From sequence record PP216084: a DNA stretch of 64,000 bases, one strand, 5' to 3'. A model generated the notes under the pieces. That model had not been told where the DNA came from. It ran no database searches and saw only the letters and a program-made list of their open reading frames with translations. The stretch comes from Escherichia phage vB_EcoS_HZ_ZJUN2. A program made the position numbers and the translations under genes. Below, one piece after another: positions 4,789 to 58,900 of the stretch. Positions within the stretch are counted from its first letter, which is position 1; every line of letters starts with the position of its first letter.

Positions 4789-5017
4789 CACCATAGCCGA
4801 TAGGCTTTAAGATGTACCCAGTTCGATAAGAGCGATAACTTGATAAAATCTGACGGCCGGTACTTGCCATAATGTGCCCCGCCCCCTAACTGGGATATAG
4901 CGGCCCGCGTGGAGTTCCTTAAATTGATTTTATAATGGCGAGTGGATTTTTTCTTATTATCTGCTAGAAAGTAGCAGATAATGCGGAACAATCCACAAAT
5001 AACTTGGAGTTTATACC

Positions 5018-5269
5018 ATGAAAAACGTTATTAATGCGCCGAAAGTTGGTCAATCCGTTTTTATTCCTTTCGTTACTAAAACGGACGAATTAACCGGAAA
5101 AGCCGAACGTATTAAAGGCGCGGCGCTCATGCCGTTCGATACAATCGATGCGGTATACGCTGAAAATGAGCGCAGTAACAACGGAAAAACCGTTTTTAGC
5201 GTTCGCGTTAAATCTGGCGACGTTGTAAAGGTTGTTCAACGCAACGAAAAATGGGAAGCTGTATTATAA
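5018..5269 (+). CDS. Hypothetical pre-early protein, 83 aa
   Basis: Conserved initiation context cttGGAGtttatacc-ATG; followed by hairpin 5285-5310. Confidence 0.5.
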   Translation: MKNVINAPKVGQSVFIPFVTKTDELTGKAERIKGAALMPFDTIDAVYAENERSNNGKTVFSVRVKSGDVVKVVQRNEKWEAVL

Positions 5270-5284
5270 ATTAGTGTTAACTTT

Positions 5285-5310
5285 ATATGCCCCGAACTAC
5301 TGGGGCATAT
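5285..5310 (+). terminator. GC-rich palindromic hairpin after a pre-early cassette
   Basis: atatgcccc-gaactac-tggggcatat. Confidence 0.4.
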
Positions 5311-5370
5311 AACGATTAACATTATGTTAATCATTTAATCCCTTAAATTAAATTAATTGGAGTTTATATC

Positions 5371-5787
5371 ATGACTAACGTTAAAACCGAAAAAGCCGCA
5401 AAATTTTCTTGGAATGAAGAAAACACTCAGCAGGCTGTTACCATGTATCAGCAGTTAATCAACGAAAACGGGCTAGAATTCGCAAATAGCGACGGCTTGA
5501 AAGAGATCGCAAAGGCAGTAGGCGCGGCTTCTCCCGTATCCGTTCGGTCAAAATTGACCAGCGCGAAAGCCTATCAGAAAAGCGACAAGCCGCGCAAAGT
5601 TGGCGGCGGTAGTTCAATCCGCAAGGCTCATTATGTGCGAGTGATTGCAAAACATGCCATCGATTCCGGCATTATCAAGGACGCCGATGATCTGGCAAGC
5701 CTTGAAAGCGCGAAATTAGAAACGTTGGACGTCGTGGCGCAACTATTGGGCGTTGCCGATGAAGTAAAACAAGCCGCAGGCGAATAA
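5371..5787 (+). CDS. Putative DNA-binding protein, 138 aa (possible A2-like candidate)
   Basis: Conserved RBS context; carries the motif EIAKAVGAASPVSVRSKLTSAKAY also seen in 52881-53648 and 57438-57848; size fits a ~15 kDa pre-early protein. Confidence 0.5.
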   Translation: MTNVKTEKAAKFSWNEENTQQAVTMYQQLINENGLEFANSDGLKEIAKAVGAASPVSVRSKLTSAKAYQKSDKPRKVGGGSSIRKAHYVRVIAKHAIDSGIIKDADDLASLESAKLETLDVVAQLLGVADEVKQAAGE

Positions 5788-5794
5788 ATTTAAT

Positions 5795-5816
5795 TAGCGG
5801 GGAATACTCCCCGCTA
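5795..5816 (+). terminator. GC-rich palindromic hairpin after a pre-early cassette
   Basis: tagcgggg-aatact-ccccgcta. Confidence 0.4.
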
Positions 5817-5844
5817 TAATTTCCCTTTAATTGGAGTTATTAAA

Positions 5845-6042
5845 ATGATTTTCTTTCCTACTGAATCGCTCATTCTAGGCTTATTTATTATGGCGGCCTC
5901 GCTATTGTTCGCATATTTTCAAAATGACTTAGATTCATATTATTTTAAACGCAAATCTAAGTTAGCAAAGCGGTTAGGTCTGATTTGTTTTATTGCCGCC
6001 GTTGTTTGTGGTGTTAGTTCTAGCCTGATGCCTATTAGTTGA
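5845..6042 (+). CDS. Small membrane protein, 65 aa, two predicted TM helices
   Basis: Conserved RBS context ccctttaattGGAGtt; hydrophobic segments LILGLFIMAASLLFAY and LGLICFIAAVVCGV. Confidence 0.45.
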   Translation: MIFFPTESLILGLFIMAASLLFAYFQNDLDSYYFKRKSKLAKRLGLICFIAAVVCGVSSSLMPIS

Positions 6043-6054
6043 ATGTTGCAAATT

Positions 6055-6122
6055 ATAACGCCTATTATTCAAGGCGTTATATCTGGCAATATTTGCCAAT
6101 AACAAACGTTTTTTTTTTTTTT
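6055..6122 (+). terminator. Two hairpins followed by a T14 run
   Basis: ataacgcc...ggcgttat (6055-6080), tggcaatatttgccaa (6084-6099), T-run 6107-6122. Confidence 0.5.
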
Positions 6123-6147
6123 AATCCCTTTAATGGAGTTTATTATT

Positions 6148-7818
6148 ATGATTATTTCCGCAGAAAAACAAACCGTTATCCTGAAGCTGGCCGCTGACTT
6201 TAATTTTTATGGTAAACGTCTGCGCGCCACCCGGCTGGAAGTCTGCGACGATATATCAAAAGCGGTTTACGATACTGCAAAACACTCTACCGCGATTTGT
6301 GATTGGTTAGAAGCAAATAAACCAGCGAAACCGAAAACAGCGAAAGCGGTGAAAGCCATTAAAAACGACGAGCGCCCCGAAGCGGCTGGAATTATTTCTA
6401 GCACGGTGGAACAGTGGGAAGTAAAACAAGGTAAACGTTTTATTATTACATCGATTCAGAATAATACTTTCCCGCATAAAAACTTTTTAGCCTCGCTTGA
6501 GCAATATGCCCAATTTATTGGCGCTGATTTGCTTGTTTCTAAGTATATTTATAATAAAAACGGCTTTCAAAATGGTGAAGGCGCGGACGGTGTAAAATAT
6601 GATTCCGCGTTTGATAAATATATTTGCAGTAAAAACGTGTTTTTAAATAACCGCCGTTTTGCTTTCATGGCTGAAATTAATGTTTTGCCCACCGCAGATT
6701 ATCCGCTATCTGGATTCGCAGAAACTGCAACGGCGCTTAATCTGGAAGGTCTGGCAATTGGTCACGCTAAAATCACCGCCGAAAGCGTTCCAGCTTTAAA
6801 AGGTGAAGTGGTGCGCCGCATGTATTCCACCGGAACGGCAACGCTCAAAAACTACATTCAGCAGAAAGCAGGACAGAAAGCGGAGGCGCTGCATAATTTC
6901 GGGGCGCTGATTGTCGAGTTCGACGAAGACGGTGAGTTTTTTGTGCGCCAGCTTGAAACGATGGACGAAAGCGGCATGTTTTATGATCTGAATATCTGCG
7001 CCACTCCCGCCGGATGTTTTGAAACGTCGGGGCATGTTTTAGGTTTACAGTATGGCGACGTGCACGCTGAAAAATTAGATGAGGAGTGCGCCGCAGCGTC
7101 ATGGGGTCATGGTGATACTTATGGGCTAGTGGATATTCTTAAACCAAAATATCAATTCGTCCATGACGTTCACGATTTTACATCACGCAACCATCACAAC
7201 CGCGCTTCCGGTGTATTCCTAGCAAAACAATACGCCGCCGGACGTGATAAGGTTATGGATGATCTTATCGATACGGGGCGCGTACTGGAAGCAATGGAGC
7301 GCGATTTCTCGCAAACAATCATTGTTGAATCGAATCACGATCTGGCGTTATCTCGTTGGCTTGATGATCGAAATGCTAACATCAAAGACGACCCAGCAAA
7401 CGCCGAATTATATCACCGCCTGAATGCGGCTATCTATGCAGCTATCGCAAATCATGACGACACTTTCAACGTGCTAGATTATGCGCTGCGTAATGTTGCA
7501 GGCTGCGAGTTTAACGCCATTTTTTTAACGACTGATCAATCTTTTAAGATTGCAGGCATTGAGTGCGGTGTACACGGTCACAACGGCATTAACGGCAGCC
7601 GTGGAAACCCAAAACAATTTAAGAAATTGGGCAAATTAAACACCGGACACACCCACACCGCCAGCATTTACGGCGGCGTATACACGGCGGGCGTCGCTGG
7701 TTCCCTCGATATGGGCTACAACGTTGGCGCGTCAAGCTGGACGCAAACGCATTTAATTACATACGCAAACGGGCAACGCACTTTAATTGACTTTAAGAAC
7801 GGCAAATTTTTCGCATAA
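6148..7818 (+). CDS. A1: A1-like pre-early protein, 556 aa, calcineurin-like metallophosphatase (candidate DNase)
   Basis: Start moved to ATG at 6148 (the ATGGAG at 6133 is the RBS); motifs GDVHA, GHGD, ESNHD, GVHGHNG, TGHTHT; length equals recalled T5 A1. Confidence 0.6.
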   Translation: MIISAEKQTVILKLAADFNFYGKRLRATRLEVCDDISKAVYDTAKHSTAICDWLEANKPAKPKTAKAVKAIKNDERPEAAGIISSTVEQWEVKQGKRFIITSIQNNTFPHKNFLASLEQYAQFIGADLLVSKYIYNKNGFQNGEGADGVKYDSAFDKYICSKNVFLNNRRFAFMAEINVLPTADYPLSGFAETATALNLEGLAIGHAKITAESVPALKGEVVRRMYSTGTATLKNYIQQKAGQKAEALHNFGALIVEFDEDGEFFVRQLETMDESGMFYDLNICATPAGCFETSGHVLGLQYGDVHAEKLDEECAAASWGHGDTYGLVDILKPKYQFVHDVHDFTSRNHHNRASGVFLAKQYAAGRDKVMDDLIDTGRVLEAMERDFSQTIIVESNHDLALSRWLDDRNANIKDDPANAELYHRLNAAIYAAIANHDDTFNVLDYALRNVAGCEFNAIFLTTDQSFKIAGIECGVHGHNGINGSRGNPKQFKKLGKLNTGHTHTASIYGGVYTAGVAGSLDMGYNVGASSWTQTHLITYANGQRTLIDFKNGKFFA

Positions 7819-7828
7819 TTAAATTTAT

Positions 7829-7850
7829 AAGCGGGGTATATACCCCGCTT
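7829..7850 (+). terminator. Perfect 22 bp palindromic hairpin after A1-like gene
   Basis: aagcggggtata-taccccgctt. Confidence 0.45.
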
Positions 7851-7883
7851 ATGCCCCTTATTAAATTAATTGGAGTTATAAAC

Positions 7884-8276
7884 ATGAAAAAGCAAAATAT
7901 TCCATTCGATCGCGCTCAATCTTCCATTGTTCTGGTTTATTCAAATGGTGAGCGTTACCACGTCGAGGCCGGTCACGTTGTTGATGATTTAATCGAGTTT
8001 AATGAGGCGCTACAGATCACGACTTTCGCCTATACGCAAGGCCGCGCTAGTAGTCACATAAAGGCCGCAGGCGTTTATGTTGATACGGTGAAGCAGGAAA
8101 CGATTATCATCGACGCCGTAAAAGCTGGCCTAGCGTTTGCAGTTGTCGCACCTTGTCCCGCTTGCCTTGATGATCAGCTATCGAGTGCAAAGGTCTACAT
8201 TTGCGCGGGTATTCGTTCCCATGTATCCGGCGAAGATATTAGTTTTATCGCTGATGCGCTGGCTTATGGTCTTTGA
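7884..8276 (+). CDS. Hypothetical pre-early protein, 130 aa
   Basis: Start set to ATG at 7884 downstream of conserved ttaattGGAGtt; followed by hairpin 8290-8316. Confidence 0.5.
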   Translation: MKKQNIPFDRAQSSIVLVYSNGERYHVEAGHVVDDLIEFNEALQITTFAYTQGRASSHIKAAGVYVDTVKQETIIIDAVKAGLAFAVVAPCPACLDDQLSSAKVYICAGIRSHVSGEDISFIADALAYGL

Positions 8277-50799: not shown

Positions 50800-51329
50800 G
50801 AGTTTAGCTCCTCTAGTGCAGGATAATTAGATATATCAAAAATCTCTATAACAGCACGTTCTCCATGTAGATTAGTTCTCAGTATATTTGCTGAGTTTAC
50901 AGCTAATTCTAACTCTTCATACTTAAATCTGCCACCATTTTTAAGGTTGCCATTAGAGTCTCTTACCTGTACCCTCCATTTTTGTTTTTCAATATCCCAA
51001 GCAACTCCTAAGTACCCAGATTTACTACATGCTGTTTTATTTCTACTATTTTCCTGGGCTGTAGCATCTCTTAGATTACACCACCTATTATCAAAGGGTA
51101 TTCTGTTTACATGGTCTACTTTTTCAGGCAGTGTATTCTCCATAAATAGAAAAGCCATACGATGAGCTTTGTAATCCTTTCCATCTATGCCAATAATTAT
51201 ATAGTCATTAGAGTCTTTTCTAGTTACTATACTCCCAGCTTTCTGATTGCCTCTAGATACTTTTCTAGTAAACTCCCCAGTTTCTGGGGAGTAATCAAAT
51301 AACTCTTTTAGCCTTTCCTGTGTTATCAT
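50796..51329 (-). CDS. HNH homing endonuclease with AP2 domain, 177 aa
   Basis: HNH_3-like DHVNRIPFDNRWCNL and AP2-like YLGVAWDIEKQKWRVQV; inserted between helicase and primase. Confidence 0.65.
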   Translation of the reverse strand: MITQERLKELFDYSPETGEFTRKVSRGNQKAGSIVTRKDSNDYIIIGIDGKDYKAHRMAFLFMENTLPEKVDHVNRIPFDNRWCNLRDATAQENSRNKTACSKSGYLGVAWDIEKQKWRVQVRDSNGNLKNGGRFKYEELELAVNSANILRTNLHGERAVIEIFDISNYPALEELNS

Positions 51330-52849
51330 ATATCGCTGGCCTGTTCACCTGTTGAATTTTCAGCTTTGTCTTTCTTAGCACGTTTAGGTTGAGCCGGCTT
51401 ATCCTTCTCAATAGGGATAACGAACTCAGCTTCCATTTGAGATATATCTTCCATTGCTAGGTTGGTAGTGTTATCCATTCGCAGAGTTTCCCAGTTCATT
51501 TTAGGCATAAACTTCACGCTATCAGAAGAACGAGTCTTAACGAAGTCAAACATAATAGCACCTTGACCATTATCAGCTTTTGCAGCATTAAGATTAGCAG
51601 CCATGTCTGCGGAATCAAGAATCCCCTTTGACATACGTGTTCTACCATCTTGATCGATCTGGTAAGGAGCTACACCAGCCACGTTATGTTTCTGGCAGAT
51701 AGATTTGAAAGACGAGCTAACAACCATCTGTTCTTTCCAGTCATACATATCAATGGTTTTAGAGTCTGGAAGTCGGGTTTGGTTAATATAGTCCAGTAAG
51801 GCTACTGTAACTTTATCTCCATATCTAGCAACTAATTTATTTAGTTCTACGTCAACTGTTGTAATAGACAGCTCAGGGTCATAAACAATAATCATAGGAG
51901 TATGTAGTTCATACCCTTCTATTAGCTTACTCTCCATATCGTAGAAATCACTCATCTTAGCCATTGTGTATTGTTTAACGAAGTTATCAAAAAGCTCTTC
52001 ACCACCATTAAACATTCTAGCTCTAGTTCTGGCTAATCTCAACAGAGCTGCACCTTCTAGAGTATTATTACGCATTGCTAGTGCTGATACACCTGCTAAC
52101 ATGGCTAGATTACGTCTAAATACTTCATGTTCTTTCATCTCAATTGAGAAGTATGGAGCAATATCTCCATTCAAATATTGCTGAACCTGTATGTTTGAAC
52201 AGATAATGGATTTACCAGTACCACGCCAACCACCAAGCAGTAACGTTTCTGTGCGAGCTAAACCAATTTGAGCGTCGAACTCATTACAAATACCAAGAGC
52301 GATTAAGTTCAGTTTGGTATCTTCTTCTCTCTGGAAAATACGCATGTTATCTGCGTTGAATACTTTTCCAGTATTCGTTACTTTCTCTTCTAATTTTAAG
52401 TGAAGGGAGGCAACTCGGTTGAGAATTTCTCCCTGATCCAGCATTGTTAAATCTTGAAGCACGTCTGTTTCTAGAAGCTTCAGGAATAGATCCTGCGTAT
52501 ATTCGGCTTCTAGGACTTCAAGTGCCTGTTCCATGCTCACTTCTGGAATTTGAGTGTTAGCTAAGACGACTAGAGCTTGAGAAAGGCGGGCGTTCCTATT
52601 AGCTTCAAGCATAAGTGCGTCAATGGACGGCATTGTGTTATATTTTTTATAATAATTCTGGACGGCTTGGTAAATTGAGGAGAAAGCGTCATTAAAATGA
52701 TCTTTATGCAGTTTTGAGAATGTTTCCAATGCTATTTGCTTCTGTTCTGAAGCAAGAAGCATCTTCAACACTACAGCTTGCACGTTAAACAAGGTCATTC
52801 TCCTTTGCACGCTTTCGTGCCTTCTAAATGCAAAAAGGGGAAGGAGCAT
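51326..52849 (-). CDS. Replicative DNA helicase, DnaB-like, 507 aa
   Basis: RecA-like core with Walker A GGWRGTGKS; true start possibly at internal Met18. Confidence 0.75.
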   Translation of the reverse strand: MLLPLFAFRRHESVQRRMTLFNVQAVVLKMLLASEQKQIALETFSKLHKDHFNDAFSSIYQAVQNYYKKYNTMPSIDALMLEANRNARLSQALVVLANTQIPEVSMEQALEVLEAEYTQDLFLKLLETDVLQDLTMLDQGEILNRVASLHLKLEEKVTNTGKVFNADNMRIFQREEDTKLNLIALGICNEFDAQIGLARTETLLLGGWRGTGKSIICSNIQVQQYLNGDIAPYFSIEMKEHEVFRRNLAMLAGVSALAMRNNTLEGAALLRLARTRARMFNGGEELFDNFVKQYTMAKMSDFYDMESKLIEGYELHTPMIIVYDPELSITTVDVELNKLVARYGDKVTVALLDYINQTRLPDSKTIDMYDWKEQMVVSSSFKSICQKHNVAGVAPYQIDQDGRTRMSKGILDSADMAANLNAAKADNGQGAIMFDFVKTRSSDSVKFMPKMNWETLRMDNTTNLAMEDISQMEAEFVIPIEKDKPAQPKRAKKDKAENSTGEQASDI

Positions 52850-52880: not shown

Positions 52881-53648
52881 TTATTCAGCAGCCGCAGCTT
52901 TTGCATCCAGTTTAGCACGCTTAGCGGCACCATCATAGTCCTTAGCAACCAGACCACGACGAGACAGCATAGATTTAACACCACGCTCAGACTTACCAGT
53001 TTTCTCAGCGATCTCAGCAACAGTCATGTTAACCAGATCCAGACCTTCTAACAGATCTTCACGAGTTTTAGCACTTGAAGTTTCCTGTACCGGCATAGCA
53101 GCGATACGACCTTCACGAAGCAGGCTCAGAGCTTTACCACGGATCTGCTTAATATTGCGACCGAAGTGAGCAGCGATAGCTTCAATAGTAGCACCAGCAA
53201 CAACCTGATTAACAAAATCAGTTTCTTCATCCGGAGTGAAGGAACGAACAGCGGCAGCTTTTTCGGTTGGTTTAACAGAAGCGGTCATTTCCAGACTCAG
53301 GATCTTACCCTGTACCTGTTTAGCACCGAACTGACCACCAGCTACAGCAGCAGCGATTTCAGCATAGGTATACTGACCAGCATGAGCGTTCAGGAAATCA
53401 ACCAGCTCAGCTTCCTGCTCAGGAGTCCACGGGGATTTCTGTACTTCGTTAGCTTTCTGTACTTCAAAACCTTCTTTACGCAGTTTAGAGCCAACAGAGC
53501 GAGCAGTAACATCTTTGCCAGTTTCAGCAGCTAGTTCAGCAGCAATAGCAGCTACTTGTTCTTGAGAGATTACAGCAACACCCAGAGCAGTGGCTTTTGC
53601 TTTCAGAGACTCGGTTACACCTTCTACGTTCCAGTTCAGTTTAGACAT
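52881..53648 (-). CDS. Repeated-motif DNA-binding protein, 255 aa (possible D5-like)
   Basis: Four tandem copies of a ~30 aa unit of form EIAxxxGxxxxxxRxKL; size fits a ~29 kDa dsDNA-binding protein. Confidence 0.45.
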   Translation of the reverse strand: MSKLNWNVEGVTESLKAKATALGVAVISQEQVAAIAAELAAETGKDVTARSVGSKLRKEGFEVQKANEVQKSPWTPEQEAELVDFLNAHAGQYTYAEIAAAVAGGQFGAKQVQGKILSLEMTASVKPTEKAAAVRSFTPDEETDFVNQVVAGATIEAIAAHFGRNIKQIRGKALSLLREGRIAAMPVQETSSAKTREDLLEGLDLVNMTVAEIAEKTGKSERGVKSMLSRRGLVAKDYDGAAKRAKLDAKAAAAE

Positions 53649-54423
53649 TATTATTTTTCTCCAATAGTTCTTTAATCGACAGGATTTCTATCCCATTCGT
53701 TTCGGCTTTCTTATAAGATGAGGAAGAACGTTTTGATTCATCCTCACAGATTAGGTATTTGACGTCTTTGGTAACGGATTTCTTAACCGTATACCCTAGA
53801 CCTTCTAAATAGTTTGTTGCATCCGTTCTATTTGCAAAATCTTGCAAAGATCCGGTAATACATACCGCGATTCCATTTGGCTTGGCAACTAATTCATCCG
53901 TAGTGATAATATTAGCTTTAGTGCCCTTAATACCAGTTGAGAATTTCCACGGTAGTTCGATAACATCCTTGCCTTGTGGGGAATTTAGCCAGGCTTTGTA
54001 ATTTTCTCCAGCCTTGCCGTCAGCCTTCACATCATGGAAGCTAGTGCAATTTTGGGATAATTTCTTTGCTGCAACCTCTCCAATTAGAGGGATTCCTAAA
54101 GAACCGAGAACTGAACCAAAGTCAATGTCTCCGCGAACTTTAGTATTTAATTCGCTAATTAACTTAGCGGCAACCTTGCTACCCACGGCTCTAACCAAAT
54201 CTTCTTCGGTTAGGTAAAATAGTTCTGAAATCTTCGTCAGCTCCAGCTTCTCAATAGTTTTTGGGCCAAAGCCCTTTAACTTCATTTTTGAACAGAAGTT
54301 CTCAATTAACTTGCTTGATTGCGCTGGACAGTTGGACTTATTACGACAGAATAATTGTCCGTTGACAAGATCTAGCTTAGAACCACAAGAGGGACATTGT
54401 GTTGGAATTTCGATTTTCATCAA
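53641..54423 (-). CDS. ligB: NAD-dependent DNA ligase, C-terminal half (Zn finger, HhH, BRCT), 260 aa
   Basis: CPSCGS...CRNKSNC zinc finger, HhH GFGPKTIEKL, BRCT-like CITGSL...YLICED. Confidence 0.75.
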   Translation of the reverse strand: MMKIEIPTQCPSCGSKLDLVNGQLFCRNKSNCPAQSSKLIENFCSKMKLKGFGPKTIEKLELTKISELFYLTEEDLVRAVGSKVAAKLISELNTKVRGDIDFGSVLGSLGIPLIGEVAAKKLSQNCTSFHDVKADGKAGENYKAWLNSPQGKDVIELPWKFSTGIKGTKANIITTDELVAKPNGIAVCITGSLQDFANRTDATNYLEGLGYTVKKSVTKDVKYLICEDESKRSSSSYKKAETNGIEILSIKELLEKNNNV

Positions 54424-54622: not shown

Positions 54623-55597
54623 TTAATCGTATACTCGCTCTACTATGCACGGGATTACACCACCAGCACGAATCACTCGAATCTGGCAACCGATCTCTAG
54701 ATCGAGAGAGTTAATATAATCAACGTTATTAAGAGTTGCTTTAACAATTGTAGCATCATCAATAATTACCGGTTCGAAATAACCAACTGGAGTTACTTTA
54801 CCAGAAGCCCCTACCTGCCATTCAACTTTAGTAAGAGTTGTAATCTCGCCTTCTTCATCCTCTTTAATGGCGAAGGCTCCACGAGGGAATTTATTAGTCC
54901 AGCCTTCACGGAAGAATTTGTTGTTGTCATTAATACGAACAACTTTACCGTCCGTCGGAATCCATTTAAAGAAGGAACGCACATTAACAACTGTTAAGAA
55001 GTTCTCATTCTCTAGCCAAAGCATATCTTTTAAGTATGCTTCTGTAATACCTACAGATTCAGCAGAACATTGGATACCATAAGCAACAAAGATTAAACCG
55101 CCTTCTCCAATGCGTTGTACGAAAGCATCACTATCTTTGAGGTTAATAGCACCAGAGGCAAAGTTACGTTTATTTTCTACTTCTTTTGTAATTAGAACTT
55201 CACCAGTGATTTGAGTAGGTACTTTTTGGGAAATCTTTTTAGGAATATTCAGCAATCTTACGTTGCTTGTGACATCATTCCCCAGAATACCATTACCACG
55301 AGTTAATGCTTGAACAAATTCACCGTTAATATATAATAGAGAAATTGCACAACCATCTAACTTATCAGTTTCTACCTGACCTAAAGGATTAAATGGTGGT
55401 TTATCCCCACGATTATAATAAACTTTCTGTAAAGAATACATACGGTACAGATGTGGAATATCTCCCTTAGGCCCGATCTCTTCTTCTAGTGGGAAGCGTT
55501 TTACCAGGCAATCATACTCCTCATCAGAGATTAAAGACATGCCTTGATAATATGCTTCTTGACAACGCTTAATAAAGCCTCTTACATTATTCATCAT
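54623..55597 (-). CDS. ligA: NAD-dependent DNA ligase, N-terminal adenylation and OB half, 324 aa
   Basis: Adenylation motif KLDG (TDKLDGCAIS), NAD-ligase domain order; separate ORF from the C-terminal half. Confidence 0.8.
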   Translation of the reverse strand: MMNNVRGFIKRCQEAYYQGMSLISDEEYDCLVKRFPLEEEIGPKGDIPHLYRMYSLQKVYYNRGDKPPFNPLGQVETDKLDGCAISLLYINGEFVQALTRGNGILGNDVTSNVRLLNIPKKISQKVPTQITGEVLITKEVENKRNFASGAINLKDSDAFVQRIGEGGLIFVAYGIQCSAESVGITEAYLKDMLWLENENFLTVVNVRSFFKWIPTDGKVVRINDNNKFFREGWTNKFPRGAFAIKEDEEGEITTLTKVEWQVGASGKVTPVGYFEPVIIDDATIVKATLNNVDYINSLDLEIGCQIRVIRAGGVIPCIVERVYD

Positions 55598-56125: not shown

Positions 56126-56437
56126 TTATTCTTTTTCCGCCAGGCGTTTAGCTTCTTTTTCTACTTCTAATAAAACCTCACTATTAGATAATATTTTAGT
56201 AAATGCCTTAAATAAATGAGATGTTGTTTCTAGAGTGTATGGCATACTGAATCCACTTTTTGTTGGAAACCATTCACCTTCTATATCTTGGAGCCAGTAC
56301 CTAATTCCTAAGTATAGATTCCCCCTAAACTCAGATACAGTTAGCCTAACCTGTTGGCCATCTTCTCTCTCCCAGATAACTATGGACTGATCATCTACAT
56401 GTCCAACATAATCCTGATTTACATTATCTCCTGACAT
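56126..56437 (-). CDS. PC4/Sub1-like ssDNA-binding protein, 103 aa
   Basis: VSEFRGNLYLGIRYW...GEWFPTKSGFSM resembles the PC4 core VxxFRGKxYxDIREYW...PGKKGISL. Confidence 0.55.
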   Translation of the reverse strand: MSGDNVNQDYVGHVDDQSIVIWEREDGQQVRLTVSEFRGNLYLGIRYWLQDIEGEWFPTKSGFSMPYTLETTSHLFKAFTKILSNSEVLLEVEKEAKRLAEKE

Positions 56438-57084
56438 TTTATTGCTCCCTGACTTAGGAGATATTCCTCTGCCTCCTCTGGTTGAATACTGAAAAACTCA
56501 GTAGAACCGTCAAATATTGACTCTGTAAATATCTGCATACTAGAAAAGAATTGATGGGCTTTATTTTCTAGGGTATATGCAGAGCCTTCATAAGAGTATA
56601 CCCCATATATACTCAGATCCACCAAATTAGAATCTTTTTTAATCTCTTGAAGTCTTCTATCTGGGTTTTTAGATGTTCCTATTTTTGTTCCTAGCTGCGG
56701 GCTATAAAATAGATACAAATAGCTTGTAGCCGCACAGATAGGGCAAGATCTTCTAGCATTTTTAATCTTATCCACGCTGCTAACCCATCTATGTCCTTCT
56801 ACACACTCGAACTCTGCTTGACTACGGGAATTAATATAGGGAGATATAAGTTTTATACCCCTACTGGCTAGCTGTTGGTTTATTTGCTCTACAGTAAGCT
56901 TAGCTTTATTACTACAATGTGGGCAACCACTACCCTTTCTTATATTATTTAGGTAAGCTTTCCATTGGTGGCCCTTTAAGCATTTAAACATGGCTGGTGT
57001 TCTTATGTTAACCCATTCACTTACTATACTAAAGCCTCGTGACTCTAATTCTTTATTTATTTGTTTTGCTGTTAACTTTTTCAC
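56419..57084 (-). CDS. Zinc-ribbon repeat protein with C-terminal GIY-YIG-like (T5orf172-type) domain, 221 aa
   Basis: Two repeats of CxxGHxW...CPxC; C-terminal SYLYLFYSPQLGTKIGTSKNPDRRLQE resembles GIY-YIG core. Confidence 0.45.
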   Translation of the reverse strand: MKKLTAKQINKELESRGFSIVSEWVNIRTPAMFKCLKGHQWKAYLNNIRKGSGCPHCSNKAKLTVEQINQQLASRGIKLISPYINSRSQAEFECVEGHRWVSSVDKIKNARRSCPICAATSYLYLFYSPQLGTKIGTSKNPDRRLQEIKKDSNLVDLSIYGVYSYEGSAYTLENKAHQFFSSMQIFTESIFDGSTEFFSIQPEEAEEYLLSQGAIKCQEIM

Positions 57085-57437: not shown

Positions 57438-57848
57438 TTACTTAGTGATAGCTCGGATTGCTTCTGCCAGATGAGCAGCCGCTTTACCGGTCAGTTTGTC
57501 GATAATTGCATCATCCAGAAAATCTGGTGCTAGGCCAGCATCAGAGAATGCTGAACGCAGGTCGGCATGAGCTTGGGCTTTGGAAGTACGAGAACCGCCA
57601 GAAGCTTTTTCTCCAGTAGATGCGCTAGATTTAGAAGCAGAGCCAGCAGCTTTCTTGATATACAAACCTGCTTTAGTCAGCTTCATACGAAAACCGTTCG
57701 GAGTTACACCATTTTCCTGGGCAATTTCGCTAACAATTTCCATGCTAACACCCGGACGTTCATCCTCTGGGAATTGCTCCATACGAGCAACGTATTCGGA
57801 AGACATTTTTTCGAACAGTTCATCAGTCCACTGAGTTGGAGTAGTCAT
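57438..57848 (-). CDS. Repeated-motif DNA-binding-like protein, 136 aa
   Basis: Contains EIVSEIAQENGVTPNGFRMKLTKAGL unit shared with 52881-53648 and 5371-5787; AAGGAAAT RBS. Confidence 0.5.
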   Translation of the reverse strand: MTTPTQWTDELFEKMSSEYVARMEQFPEDERPGVSMEIVSEIAQENGVTPNGFRMKLTKAGLYIKKAAGSASKSSASTGEKASGGSRTSKAQAHADLRSAFSDAGLAPDFLDDAIIDKLTGKAAAHLAEAIRAITK

Positions 57849-57951: not shown

Positions 57952-58227
57952 TTACTCCACCAGGCCAACAGCGAGCATATCATCAATGCTGGCAATCTCC
58001 CAATCGTCGGCAATAGCTTCGCATACTGTTAACGTAACAACCTCACTATAGGGATAATTACCAGCTACCCAGGTATGCTGGGTAACTACATCCAAATCAG
58101 TATCCAAAGTTAATAATACTAAACCGTTATTATCGTTATTCCAACTTTTACGATATAAGGTTTTTGTTTCACCATCTTTCAGTAAATCTGTTAGTTTACT
58201 CACGGCGTTTTCCTTTTTCTTTATCAA
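57952..58227 (-). CDS. Hypothetical protein, 91 aa
   Basis: ORF in track; overlaps upstream gene end. Confidence 0.45.
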   Translation of the reverse strand: MIKKKENAVSKLTDLLKDGETKTLYRKSWNNDNNGLVLLTLDTDLDVVTQHTWVAGNYPYSEVVTLTVCEAIADDWEIASIDDMLAVGLVE

Positions 58228-58900
58228 GTTTCAGGGCAGCCTTAACAGCTTCGTTAATCAACGTAATAATTTCTTCACGAGTCCATTTATATCCCAGAGA
58301 CTTTACGTCAACCCCTAACTTTTCCAGATGTTTAACAGAAGCCAGCTCGTAATTCATATAATGGACGTTCTGTTGTTTGCCCTCTGATAGAAGCCATACA
58401 CGGTAGCAACCAACAGGATTATCCATTGCTTTTTTGATTTCACCGATACACTGGTATCCAGGAACCCAAACAAGCTCACCAACTGCAAATTCTTCTGCTA
58501 CAGCATCATCAGGAATAATTGGAGGATTCAATGGATCTACAATATCGTTCAAACGAAGTAGAGCACCGTATCGTTCCAGAACAGATTTAACCATTGCTAC
58601 AGAGCGATAATTACGATCGGCAATTTCTTCAAAAGAATCACCAGACAAATACTGCTCAATAACGTTAGCTAACTCAATGCCTTCAATGAGAGTGCCGCGT
58701 TTCTTTTTCTTCATTTCGGCAACTTGAATCTGGCGGTCTTGCCATTCTTCAATCATCCTTTCCATAGTTGGGTTGGACGATACGCCGAGCATTTCACATG
58801 CTGCTTTCTTAGTACCACCGTTCTCCAGATGCTCTATAACCTTTTTAAAGACTTCATCTGGGATTTCATGGATATGTTTCTTTCTACGAGAAACAGCCAT
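58196..58900 (-). CDS. Putative HTH DNA-binding regulator, 234 aa
   Basis: N-terminal HTH-like GTKKAACEMLGVSSNPTMERMIEE; first gene behind the PN25-like promoter. Confidence 0.5.
   Translation of the reverse strand: MAVSRRKKHIHEIPDEVFKKVIEHLENGGTKKAACEMLGVSSNPTMERMIEEWQDRQIQVAEMKKKKRGTLIEGIELANVIEQYLSGDSFEEIADRNYRSVAMVKSVLERYGALLRLNDIVDPLNPPIIPDDAVAEEFAVGELVWVPGYQCIGEIKKAMDNPVGCYRVWLLSEGKQQNVHYMNYELASVKHLEKLGVDVKSLGYKWTREEIITLINEAVKAALKLDKEKGKRRE

What the first reader, a model, noticed from the sequence alone, without database searches (positions are those of the whole stretch)
5371..5787. Family of proteins built from a repeated ~30 aa DNA-binding-like unit spread across pre-early and early regions
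The unit of form [ED]IAxxxGxxxxxxRxKLxxxG occurs once or twice in the 138 aa pre-early protein (5371-5787), once or twice in the 136 aa early protein (57438-57848) and four times in tandem in the 255 aa protein (52881-53648). This suggests a phage-specific nucleic-acid-binding module reused in regulators such as A2 or D5-type proteins; I cannot assign it to a named fold.
Basis: seen in the sequence. Interest (0 to 1): 0.5.

Follow-up and report, generated by a model that had tools for sequence, protein, structure and literature searches.

The report
GcrA-type DNA-binding unit in T5 A2/D3/D5
Three already-known DNA-binding proteins of a T5-like phage (A2, D3 and D5) are built from the same small three-helix DNA-binding unit, once in A2 and D3 and four times in D5, and that unit is a phage version of the GcrA/Myb-type helix-turn-helix domain, not a new fold.

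Summary
The window is a T5-like phage (Demerecviridae). The three ORFs are the classical genes A2 (5371-5787), D3 (57438-57848, minus strand) and D5 (52881-53648, minus strand). Profile-profile comparisons, leave-one-family-out HMMs and column-shuffle controls all show that they share a unit.

The unit is a 45-60 aa three-helix domain. It occurs once in A2, once in D3 and four times in tandem in D5, where the fourth copy lacks a clear helix 1. No second copy is supported in A2 or D3.

AlphaFold models of D5 (pLDDT 94) and A2 (pLDDT 85) both have the Caulobacter GcrA DNA-binding domain (5yiu) as best PDB match, followed by Myb-like domains. Each of the six units matches a profile of foreign GcrA-type repeats (E 8e-6 to 7e-15).

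So the module is not phage-specific and can be assigned to a named fold. The proteins lack GcrA's sigma-binding domain, so they are not GcrA orthologues.

The proteins and their DNA binding are textbook T5 biology, and PHROGs already groups A2 with D3. I found no paper describing the link to D5, the GcrA-type assignment or D5 as a four-unit array. Interest is modest.

The parts
5371..5787 (+). A2 gene (138 aa), a pre-early DNA-binding protein lying directly upstream of A1 (6133-7818).
   Evidence: phrog_1725 E 4e-51. Homologues are named A2 protein and carry precomputed PF26822 = Phage_T5_A2. Phage records annotate A2/A1 under the match.
5401..5577 (+). A2 N-terminal GcrA-type three-helix unit (aa 11-69).
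5572..5640 (+). A2 conserved basic, glycine-rich linker (aa 68-90, YQKSDKPRKVGGGSSIRKAHYVR). It is the most conserved stretch of A2. Its role is inferred: a DNA-contacting arm or the A1-binding segment.
   Evidence: Invariant residues Y68 K76 G78 G79 R84 K85 H87 in 40 homologues. pLDDT dips to about 60 in the 71-80 block. D3 keeps GGxRTSKAxAH at the collinear position.
5608..5775 (+). A2 C-terminal helical domain (aa 80-135). It is not a detectable second copy of the unit. It is presumed to mediate dimerisation and/or A1 binding.
   Evidence: Helices 80-98, 105-113, 116-126 and 129-135. No significant match to the unit profiles.
57438..57848 (-). D3 gene (136 aa), an early protein with the same two-part layout as A2.
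   Evidence: phrog_1725 over the full length, E 5e-50. Homologues are named D3 protein or DNA binding protein. T5.113 is D3 in NC_005859. hhalign A2 vs D3 gives E 5.9e-7 over A2 1-107 / D3 1-112.
57651..57839 (-). D3 N-terminal GcrA-type unit (aa 4-66).
   Evidence: hhalign vs GcrA-type repeats E 1.2e-7, probability 94; vs D5 unit 1 E 1e-4 and unit 4 E 3e-4. An HMM of foreign GcrA-type repeats ranks D3 second of 530 ORF segments, E 3.5e-3.
52881..53648 (-). D5 gene (255 aa), an early double-stranded-DNA-binding protein made of four tandem units plus a C-terminal helix.
   Evidence: phrog_323 'transcriptional regulator, D5-like' E 1.5e-71. T5.118 is D5 in NC_005859, annotated as a DNA-binding protein required for replication and late transcription. 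AF2 pLDDT 94.4.
53460..53642 (-). D5 unit 1 (aa 3-63); helices 11-22, 29-43 and 49-58.
   Evidence: hhalign vs GcrA-type repeats E 1.2e-11. Invariant R50 K55 L56 R57 lie on helix 3.
53280..53438 (-). D5 unit 2 (aa 71-123); helices 76-88, 95-101 and 109-118.
   Evidence: Unit 2 vs unit 3 E 2.5e-9. vs GcrA-type repeats E 2.1e-7. Invariant Q113 G114 K115 L117 lie on helix 3. A profile of units 2 and 3 hits c-Myb in the PDB, E 7e-5.
53100..53249 (-). D5 unit 3 (aa 134-183); helices 139-150, 155-162 and 166-178.
   Evidence: vs GcrA-type repeats E 6.7e-15, probability 98.4. Invariant G171 K172 L174 lie on helix 3.
52938..53072 (-). D5 unit 4 (aa 193-237). Only the HTH helices 210-217 and 221-231 are modelled as helices, and the helix 1 position is extended.
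   Evidence: Pfam Sigma70_r4_2 E 1.1e-6, 28.7 bits against a cut-off of 25.7, at aa 204-230. vs GcrA-type repeats E 9.7e-10. BLASTP vs the D3 unit E 0.003.
58565..58675 (-). Possible further copy of the unit in D2 (ORF 58196-58900, 234 aa; aa 76-112, ...SFEEIADRNYRSVAMVKSVLERYG). Support is marginal.
   Evidence: Single-sequence hhalign vs GcrA-type repeats E 3.5e-4 (probability 37) and vs D5 unit 4 E 2.4e-4. Ranked third of 530 by the foreign GcrA-type HMM, E 0.033. Pfam HTH_28 E 1.6e-4, below threshold.

Best explanation
A2, D3 and D5 of this T5-like phage are paralogous DNA-binding proteins assembled from one ancestral domain. That domain is a GcrA/Myb-type three-helix bundle whose helix 2-turn-helix 3 inserts into the DNA major groove, with helix 3 as the recognition helix.

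D5 is four such units in tandem on short linkers, followed by a C-terminal helix. One 255 aa chain could therefore occupy several successive major-groove sites. That fits its known behaviour as an abundant duplex-DNA-binding protein needed for replication control, early shut-off and late transcription.

A2 (pre-early) and D3 (early) each have one N-terminal unit, a conserved basic Gly-rich linker and a helical C-terminal domain. The A2 dimer would present two HTH units to duplex DNA. The C-terminal part would mediate dimerisation and/or binding to A1 during second-step DNA transfer.

Shown here: the homology of the units, their fold, their copy number, and the clustering of invariant residues on helix 3.

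Inferred: the mode of DNA contact (by analogy with the GcrA-DBD/DNA structures), the roles of the linker and C-terminal domain, and any sequence specificity.
For: Identity of the genes.

Homology of the units:
- hhalign E-values from 1.7e-9 to 5e-4 for the pairs that link the units, with column-shuffle and reversal controls on eight of them.
- Leave-one-family-out HMMs.

Fold:
- D5 model pLDDT 94.4, with three complete three-helix units and a fourth HTH.
- A2 model pLDDT 84.8, with an N-terminal three-helix unit.

Sequence link to GcrA and Myb:
- The unit profile searched against 1.84 billion representatives reaches tandem arrays that pass the Pfam GcrA threshold (P0310 E 1e-52, P0316 E 4e-55, which also has the GcrA C-terminal domain) or the Myb threshold (P0339).
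- Each of the six window units matches a profile of 16 such GcrA-type repeats, E 7.7e-6 to 6.7e-15.
- An HMM of those foreign repeats ranks D5 first (E 4.7e-13) and D3 second (E 3.5e-3) of 530 window ORF segments. The best of 2650 shuffled segments scores E 1.6.

Functional surface: 13 of the 18 invariant D5 residues lie on the four third helices.

Mechanism of the template: the HTH (alpha2-alpha3) of the GcrA DBD binds the major groove as a monomer (PMC5887438).

[quoted passage not shown] D5 is annotated as a DNA-binding protein required for replication and late transcription (NC_005859).
Against: - The Pfam GcrA model itself does not hit any of the three proteins at E up to 10, and Myb_DNA-binding is below threshold (17.6 bits against 24.4).
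- The GcrA-type repeats used as the comparison profile were found with the T5 unit profile. They are therefore the GcrA-like sequences closest to T5, not a random sample.
- D3 to D5 links are weaker (E 1e-4; HMM E 0.07).
- Homology of the C-terminal halves of A2 and D3 is not significant on its own (E 0.11).
- pTM values of 0.56 and 0.48 mean the relative arrangement of the units is not predicted.
- No D3 model was made.
- No DNA-binding experiment or specificity data were available here.
Confidence: 0.85

Rival explanations
1. The resemblance is only the generic helix-turn-helix signature. A2, D3 and D5 would be independent HTH proteins with no specific common ancestry, and the 'family' would be an artefact of a loose motif.
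For: Pairwise BLASTP is weak: A2/D3 E 0.07, A2/D5 E 13, D3/D5 E 0.003. D5 draws sub-threshold hits from many HTH Pfam families. D2, another HTH protein, also scores marginally.
Against: Profile-profile E-values reach 1.7e-9, with alignments that cover helix 1 and the conserved N-terminal Trp, not just the HTH. None of the 24 column shuffles run for each of eight pairs reaches the observed score. Cross-family HMMs pick out exactly these proteins among 530 ORF segments, and nothing else in the window (apart from D2, treated as a marginal candidate) scores below about E 0.2. A2 and D5 unit 1 also share an unusual long insert between helix 1 and helix 2.
Confidence: 0.07
2. The units are best classed as Myb/SANT repeats, with D5 as a phage analogue of Myb R1R2R3, and not as GcrA-type domains.
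For: A profile of D5 units 2 and 3 hits c-Myb (E 7.4e-5), Trichomonas MYB21 (1.2e-4), B-Myb and SNAPC4 in the PDB by sequence, while GcrA does not appear. Myb_DNA-binding and Myb_DNA-bind_6 are the Pfam families matched most often by single units. Some D5 homologues carry precomputed PF00249 or PF13921. The W-T-x-E-E start of helix 1 is Myb-like. An 8-repeat Myb protein is among the profile hits.
Against: The top structural hit of both models is GcrA, not Myb. All six units match GcrA-type repeats far better than the one Myb repeat tested, although that Myb profile was a single sequence and so a weak comparator. The second and third Myb tryptophans are absent. The C-terminal K-x-x-[RK]-x-G-[LFY] tail of helix 3 is shared with GcrA-type repeats.
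Confidence: 0.2
3. D5 acts mainly as a sigma-70 region 4 mimic or RNA-polymerase-directed factor that competes for the beta-flap or for -35 elements. It would switch transcription by binding polymerase, not by coating DNA.
For: Unit 4 passes the Pfam Sigma70_r4_2 gathering score (28.7 against 25.7 bits). GcrA's DBD itself closely resembles sigma region 4 (PMC5887438). D5 is required for late transcription. How T5 switches from early to late promoters is unknown (PMC7472727).
Against: The match covers only positions 23-49 of the 54-position model, that is the HTH alone. No sigma region 2 or 3 is present. D5 is annotated as a DNA-binding protein and, from my own knowledge of the older T5 literature, was purified as a duplex-DNA-binding protein. 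Klimuk et al. describe RNAP-associated T5 proteins, and a search of that paper found no mention of D5.
Confidence: 0.08

Closest known systems
GcrA DNA-binding domain (Caulobacter crescentus GcrA residues about 1-45; PDB 5yiu/5yiv/5yiw; N-terminal part of Pfam PF07750)
   Different: A2, D3 and D5 lack GcrA's C-terminal sigma-70-interacting domain and its Cys/His motif. The Pfam GcrA model does not hit them. A2, D3 and D5 unit 1 have long inserts between helix 1 and helix 2. Recognition of methylated GANTC is untested. The host context differs: an enterobacterial lytic phage here, an alphaproteobacterial cell-cycle regulator there.
Myb/SANT repeats (c-Myb R1R2R3, PF00249/PF13921; Timeless DNA-binding repeats, LUX/GARP)
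   Different: Only the first of the three signature tryptophans is kept. Pfam scores are below the gathering threshold. Myb proteins are eukaryotic sequence-specific factors, whereas D5 is described as a general duplex-DNA binder.
Sigma-70 region 4 (PF08281/PF04545)
   Same: HTH geometry. D5 unit 4 is above the Pfam Sigma70_r4_2 threshold. The GcrA DBD is itself reported as closest to sigma region 4.
   Different: Only the HTH part of the model is matched. There are no other sigma regions and no evidence of core-polymerase binding.
Existing database families for these genes: PHROG 1725 (A2 plus D3, 'DNA binding protein'), PHROG 323 ('transcriptional regulator, D5-like'), Pfam PF26822 Phage_T5_A2
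   Same: The three ORFs are full-length members. PHROG 1725 already groups A2 with D3. PF26822 gives faint cross-hits on a few D3 and D5 homologues.
   Different: None of these entries, as far as the tools show, states the fold, links A2/D3 to D5, or describes D5 as a four-unit array.

Membership tests
GcrA-type DNA-binding domain (fold-level membership) | Compact three-helix bundle with an alpha2-alpha3 HTH that superimposes on the GcrA DBD. | tested here: met
GcrA-type DNA-binding domain (fold-level membership) | Significant sequence-profile similarity to bona fide GcrA-type DBD units. | tested here: met
   hhalign of each unit against 16 repeats from proteins that pass the Pfam GcrA threshold: u1 1.2e-11, u2 2.1e-7, u3 6.7e-15, u4 9.7e-10, A2 7.7e-6, D3 1.2e-7. 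Caveat: those repeats were found with the T5 unit profile.
GcrA family proper (Pfam PF07750, cell-cycle regulator) | Match to the Pfam GcrA model at its gathering score. | tested here: not met
   GcrA is not listed for A2, D3 or D5 even at E up to 10, nor for single units at E up to 1.
GcrA family proper (Pfam PF07750, cell-cycle regulator) | C-terminal sigma-70 region 2 interacting domain. | tested here: not met
   The C-terminal parts of A2 and D3 are short helical domains without the Cys/His-rich motif seen in P0316. D5 ends in a single helix.
GcrA family proper (Pfam PF07750, cell-cycle regulator) | Preferential binding of N6-methyladenine GANTC-type sites. | not testable with these tools
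   Needs binding assays. The G-K pair of GcrA helix 3 (G38 lines a methyl pocket) has apparent counterparts in the invariant G114-K115 and G171-K172 of D5 units 2 and 3. That correspondence rests on my own manual alignment and is a lead only.
Myb/SANT (PF00249) | Pfam model match at the gathering score, and three regularly spaced Trp/aromatic residues. | tested here: not met
   Best whole-protein score is 17.6 bits against a cut-off of 24.4. Only the first Trp is conserved (W6 and W74 in D5, F137 in unit 3, W14 in A2, W6 in D3). Profile hits to c-Myb (E 7e-5) show relatedness at superfamily level.
Sigma-70 region 4 (PF08281) | Model match at the gathering score, within a sigma factor architecture (regions 2 to 4). 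| tested here: inconclusive
   Unit 4 scores 28.7 bits against 25.7, but covers only model positions 23-49 of 54. No regions 2 or 3 are present beyond a sub-threshold Sigma70_r3 hit on the same stretch. D5 is therefore not a sigma factor.
T5 A2 family (Pfam PF26822 Phage_T5_A2; PHROG 1725) | Full-length profile match, and position upstream of A1 in the pre-early region. | tested here: met
   phrog_1725 E 4e-51. All listed homologues of the 138 aa ORF, down to 51% identity, carry PF26822. A1 lies downstream at 6133-7818. PF26822 is absent from the local Pfam copy, so it was not scored directly.
T5 D5 family (PHROG 323) | Full-length profile match, and synteny between ligB and the DnaB-like helicase D6. 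| tested here: met
   phrog_323 E 1.5e-71 over aa 1-253. The ORF lies between the ligase fragment (53641-54423) and the 507 aa DnaB-like ORF (51326-52849), the same gene order as T5.117-T5.119.

The most novel reading that the evidence does not exclude
The GcrA resemblance may be functional as well as structural. On this reading D5 (four GcrA-type units), and perhaps A2 and D3, read a DNA state or motif on the T5 genome. Candidates are Dam-methylated or hemimethylated sites, the nicks, or the repeats around the injection stop signal. The proteins would use that reading to time second-step transfer and the early-to-late transcription switch with unmodified sigma-70 polymerase. A2, D3 and D5 would then act as a temporal relay of paralogous DNA readers.
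Probability: 0.1. Interest if true: 0.65.

Novelty: new member of a known kind. Interest (0 to 1): 0.3.

Why it matters
How A2 helps A1 bring in the remaining 92% of the T5 genome is still unknown, and so is how T5 switches from early to late genes using host sigma-70 polymerase.

This analysis gives concrete, mutable DNA-binding surfaces: helix 3 of each unit. It also gives domain boundaries for constructs and a hypothesis of functional relatedness among the three proteins.

D5 also becomes a compact bacterial-virus example of a tandem tri-helical repeat DNA binder. Relatives with a different unit number exist, for example a five-unit form.

The gain is incremental. The proteins and their DNA binding were already known.

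Tried and rejected
- Pairwise BLASTP between the three proteins was too weak to decide.
- The local Pfam and NCBIfam copies gave nothing for A2 or D3. PF26822, which appears in precomputed annotations, is missing from the local Pfam. Its name (Phage_T5_A2) was recovered.
- phmmer of D5 against PDB sequences gave only E 0.56 or worse to Myb proteins.
- A Foldseek search of the A2 model against BFVD found only A2 homologues, including those of Vibrio phages. It did not retrieve D3 or D5, probably because global superposition is defeated by the flexible linkers.
- P0272, a 1259 aa protein with 23 'repeats' in the representative search, is a low-complexity translated repeat and was discarded.
- Literature searches for PF26822, T5.113/T5.118, D3/D5 protein, and GcrA with phage found no paper describing this domain relationship.

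Full report
**What the window is and what the ORFs are.** Megablast of 4900-8000 finds about 500 T5-like phage records, the best about 92% identical, with A1 and A2 annotated under the match.

- The 138 aa ORF at 5371-5787 (+) is A2. It matches phrog_1725 at E 4e-51. Its homologues are named A2 protein and carry precomputed PF26822, whose name Phage_T5_A2 was seen.
- The 136 aa ORF at 57438-57848 (-) is D3. It matches the same PHROG over its full length at E 5e-50, its homologues are named D3 protein, and T5.113 is D3 in NC_005859.
- The 255 aa ORF at 52881-53648 (-) is D5. It matches phrog_323 'D5-like transcriptional regulator' at E 1.5e-71. T5.118 is D5, annotated as a DNA-binding protein required for DNA replication and late transcription.

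**Is the shared unit real?** Pairwise BLASTP is weak, so I aligned 71 A2, 51 D3 and 119 D5 sequences (the window protein plus its homologues) and compared profiles.

- A2 vs D3: E 5.9e-7, collinear over about 100 residues.
- A2 residues 10-62 vs D5 residues 2-56: E 9.5e-8, or 1.7e-9 against the excised unit 1.
- Within D5: unit 2 vs unit 3 E 2.5e-9; u1-u2 8e-5; u1-u3 2e-4; u3-u4 1e-4.
- D3 vs u1 1e-4 and vs u4 3e-4.

For eight pairs, none of 24 column-shuffled versions nor the reversed alignment reached the observed score. Shuffled scores were about 10 +/- 2-3, observed scores 24-52, z = 4 to 25.

HMMs built while leaving a family out were searched against all 530 six-frame ORF segments of 40 aa or more in the window. 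They behave as homology predicts. The D5-only unit HMM finds A2 at E 6.8e-5 (1.8e-6 with units 1-3) and D3 next at E 0.07. The A2+D3 HMM finds D5 at E 2.9e-4.

The unit HMM finds exactly one copy in A2, one in D3 and four in D5. It finds no second copy in A2 or D3 (domain E 57 or worse).

**Structure.**

- The D5 model is confident (pLDDT 94.4). It shows helices 11-22/29-43/49-58, 76-88/95-101/109-118 and 139-150/155-162/166-178, then 210-217/221-231, and finally 240-254. That is three complete three-helix units, a fourth with only the HTH helices, and a terminal helix. The pTM of 0.56 means the relative arrangement of the units is not defined.
- The A2 model (pLDDT 84.8) has an N-terminal three-helix unit (16-33, 41-50, 55-64), a low-confidence linker, and a four-helix C-terminal domain.

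**Sequence-level placement.**

- A profile of D5 units 2 and 3 hits c-Myb (E 7.4e-5), MYB21, B-Myb and SNAPC4 among PDB sequences. Single units give sub-threshold Myb and HTH_23 Pfam hits.
- A profile of 41 unit sequences, searched against 1.84 billion representative proteins, gave 2337 hits at E 1e-3 or better. D5-like four-unit proteins dominate. Five-unit variants also occur, for example P0246 with unit 2 duplicated.
- More distant hits are tandem arrays that pass the Pfam GcrA threshold: P0310 (E 1e-52), P0316 (E 4e-55, ending in a GcrA-type C-terminal domain) and P0325. One is an eight-repeat Myb protein, P0339.
- I cut 16 GcrA-type repeats from P0310, P0316 and P0325. Each window unit matches their profile: u1 1.2e-11, u2 2.1e-7, u3 6.7e-15, u4 9.7e-10, A2 7.7e-6, D3 1.2e-7.
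- An HMM of these foreign repeats alone ranks D5 first (E 4.7e-13), D3 second (3.5e-3), D2 third (0.033) and A2 fourth (0.072) of the 530 window ORF segments. The best of 2650 shuffled segments scores E 1.6.

Caveat: these repeats were reached through the T5 profile, so they are the GcrA-like sequences nearest to T5. The Pfam GcrA model itself does not hit the window proteins.

**Mechanism.** The GcrA DBD is a three-helix bundle whose alpha2-alpha3 HTH binds the major groove as a monomer, and it resembles sigma region 4 (PMC5887438). That resemblance explains the above-threshold Sigma70_r4_2 hit on D5 unit 4.

In D5, 13 of 18 invariant residues sit on the four third helices: R50 K55 L56 R57; Q113 G114 K115 L117; G171 K172 L174; G223 L228 R231. 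That is what a recognition helix predicts.

I therefore read D5 as a string of four major-groove readers that lets one chain cover an extended stretch of duplex DNA. This is consistent with its annotation. From my own knowledge of the older T5 literature, not checked here, it also fits D5's cooperative binding to double-stranded DNA.

A2 is a dimeric double-stranded-DNA binder that associates with A1 and is essential for second-step transfer. The unit accounts for the DNA binding.

The role of the very conserved basic linker YQKxDKPRKVGGGSSxRKAHYVR, and of the C-terminal domain, in dimerisation or A1 binding is inference. D3 shares the layout and a GGxRTSKAxAH motif at the collinear position. 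The C-terminal halves alone are not significantly similar (E 0.11).

**Comparison and novelty.** The units are fold-level members of the GcrA/Myb tri-helical HTH group, closest to the GcrA DBD. The proteins are not GcrA orthologues: they have no sigma-interacting domain and no Pfam GcrA hit.

PHROGs already merges A2 and D3, and PF26822 gives faint cross-hits on some D3 and D5 homologues. I found no paper describing the A2/D3/D5 relationship, the GcrA-type assignment or the four-unit architecture of D5.

This is a new member of a known kind. It is useful for T5 biology but not surprising in kind.

**Limits.** No multimer or DNA-complex prediction was possible. The choice between GcrA-type and Myb-type rests on modest differences in score. 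D2 as a fourth carrier (aa 76-112; E 2-4e-4 from a single sequence) is unresolved.

Noticed in passing
window 58196-58900 (-), aa 76-112 = 58565-58675: D2 (234 aa) is called 'helicase' in the T5 record, but here it shows only HTH signatures (HTH_28, HTH_23). One stretch (SFEEIADRNYRSVAMVKSVLERYG) weakly matches the same GcrA-type unit: E 3.5e-4 vs GcrA-type repeats and 2.4e-4 vs D5 unit 4. It may be a fourth carrier of the module.
   Followed up: partly
window 56419-57084 (-): A 221 aa ORF with two treble-clef zinc-finger/CapR-homology stretches plus a T5orf172/MUG113 domain. It sits between the homologues of T5.114 and T5.115, where T5 itself has no gene. It looks like a mobile, homing-endonuclease-like insertion.
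   Followed up: partly
window 57952-58227 (-): A 91 aa ORF, in the position of T5.112 ('transcriptional regulator' in T5), has a sub-threshold Tad2-like (Thoeris anti-defence 2, PF11195) hit: E 1e-3, 20.1 bits against a cut-off of 25.
   Followed up: no
window 56126-56437 (-): A 103 aa ORF (T5.115 homologue) carries a PC4-type single-stranded-DNA-binding domain, E 3.7e-9. The T5 record calls it only 'transcriptional regulator'.
   Followed up: no
window 5572-5640 (+), A2 aa 68-90: The basic Gly-rich linker YQKSDKPRKVGGGSSIRKAHYVR is the most conserved part of A2 across 40 homologues, yet it is modelled with low confidence. D3 keeps GGxRTSKAxAH at the same place. It is a candidate DNA arm or A1-binding segment.
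   Followed up: partly
window 5018-5269 (+): The 83 aa ORF directly upstream of A2 is a full-length DUF7177 member, E 7.5e-42. Its function is unknown.
   Followed up: no
window 53641-54423 (-) and 54623-55597 (-): The NAD-dependent DNA ligase is split into two ORFs, as in T5 ligA/ligB. The D5 start codon overlaps the end of the ligB-like ORF by 8 bases.
   Followed up: no
P0246 and other hits (outside the window): D5 relatives vary in unit number. There are five-unit forms (in P0246, read, unit 2 is duplicated), shorter hits with 2-3 matched stretches that may be fragments, and unrelated long arrays of 7-9 GcrA/Myb-type units.
   Followed up: partly
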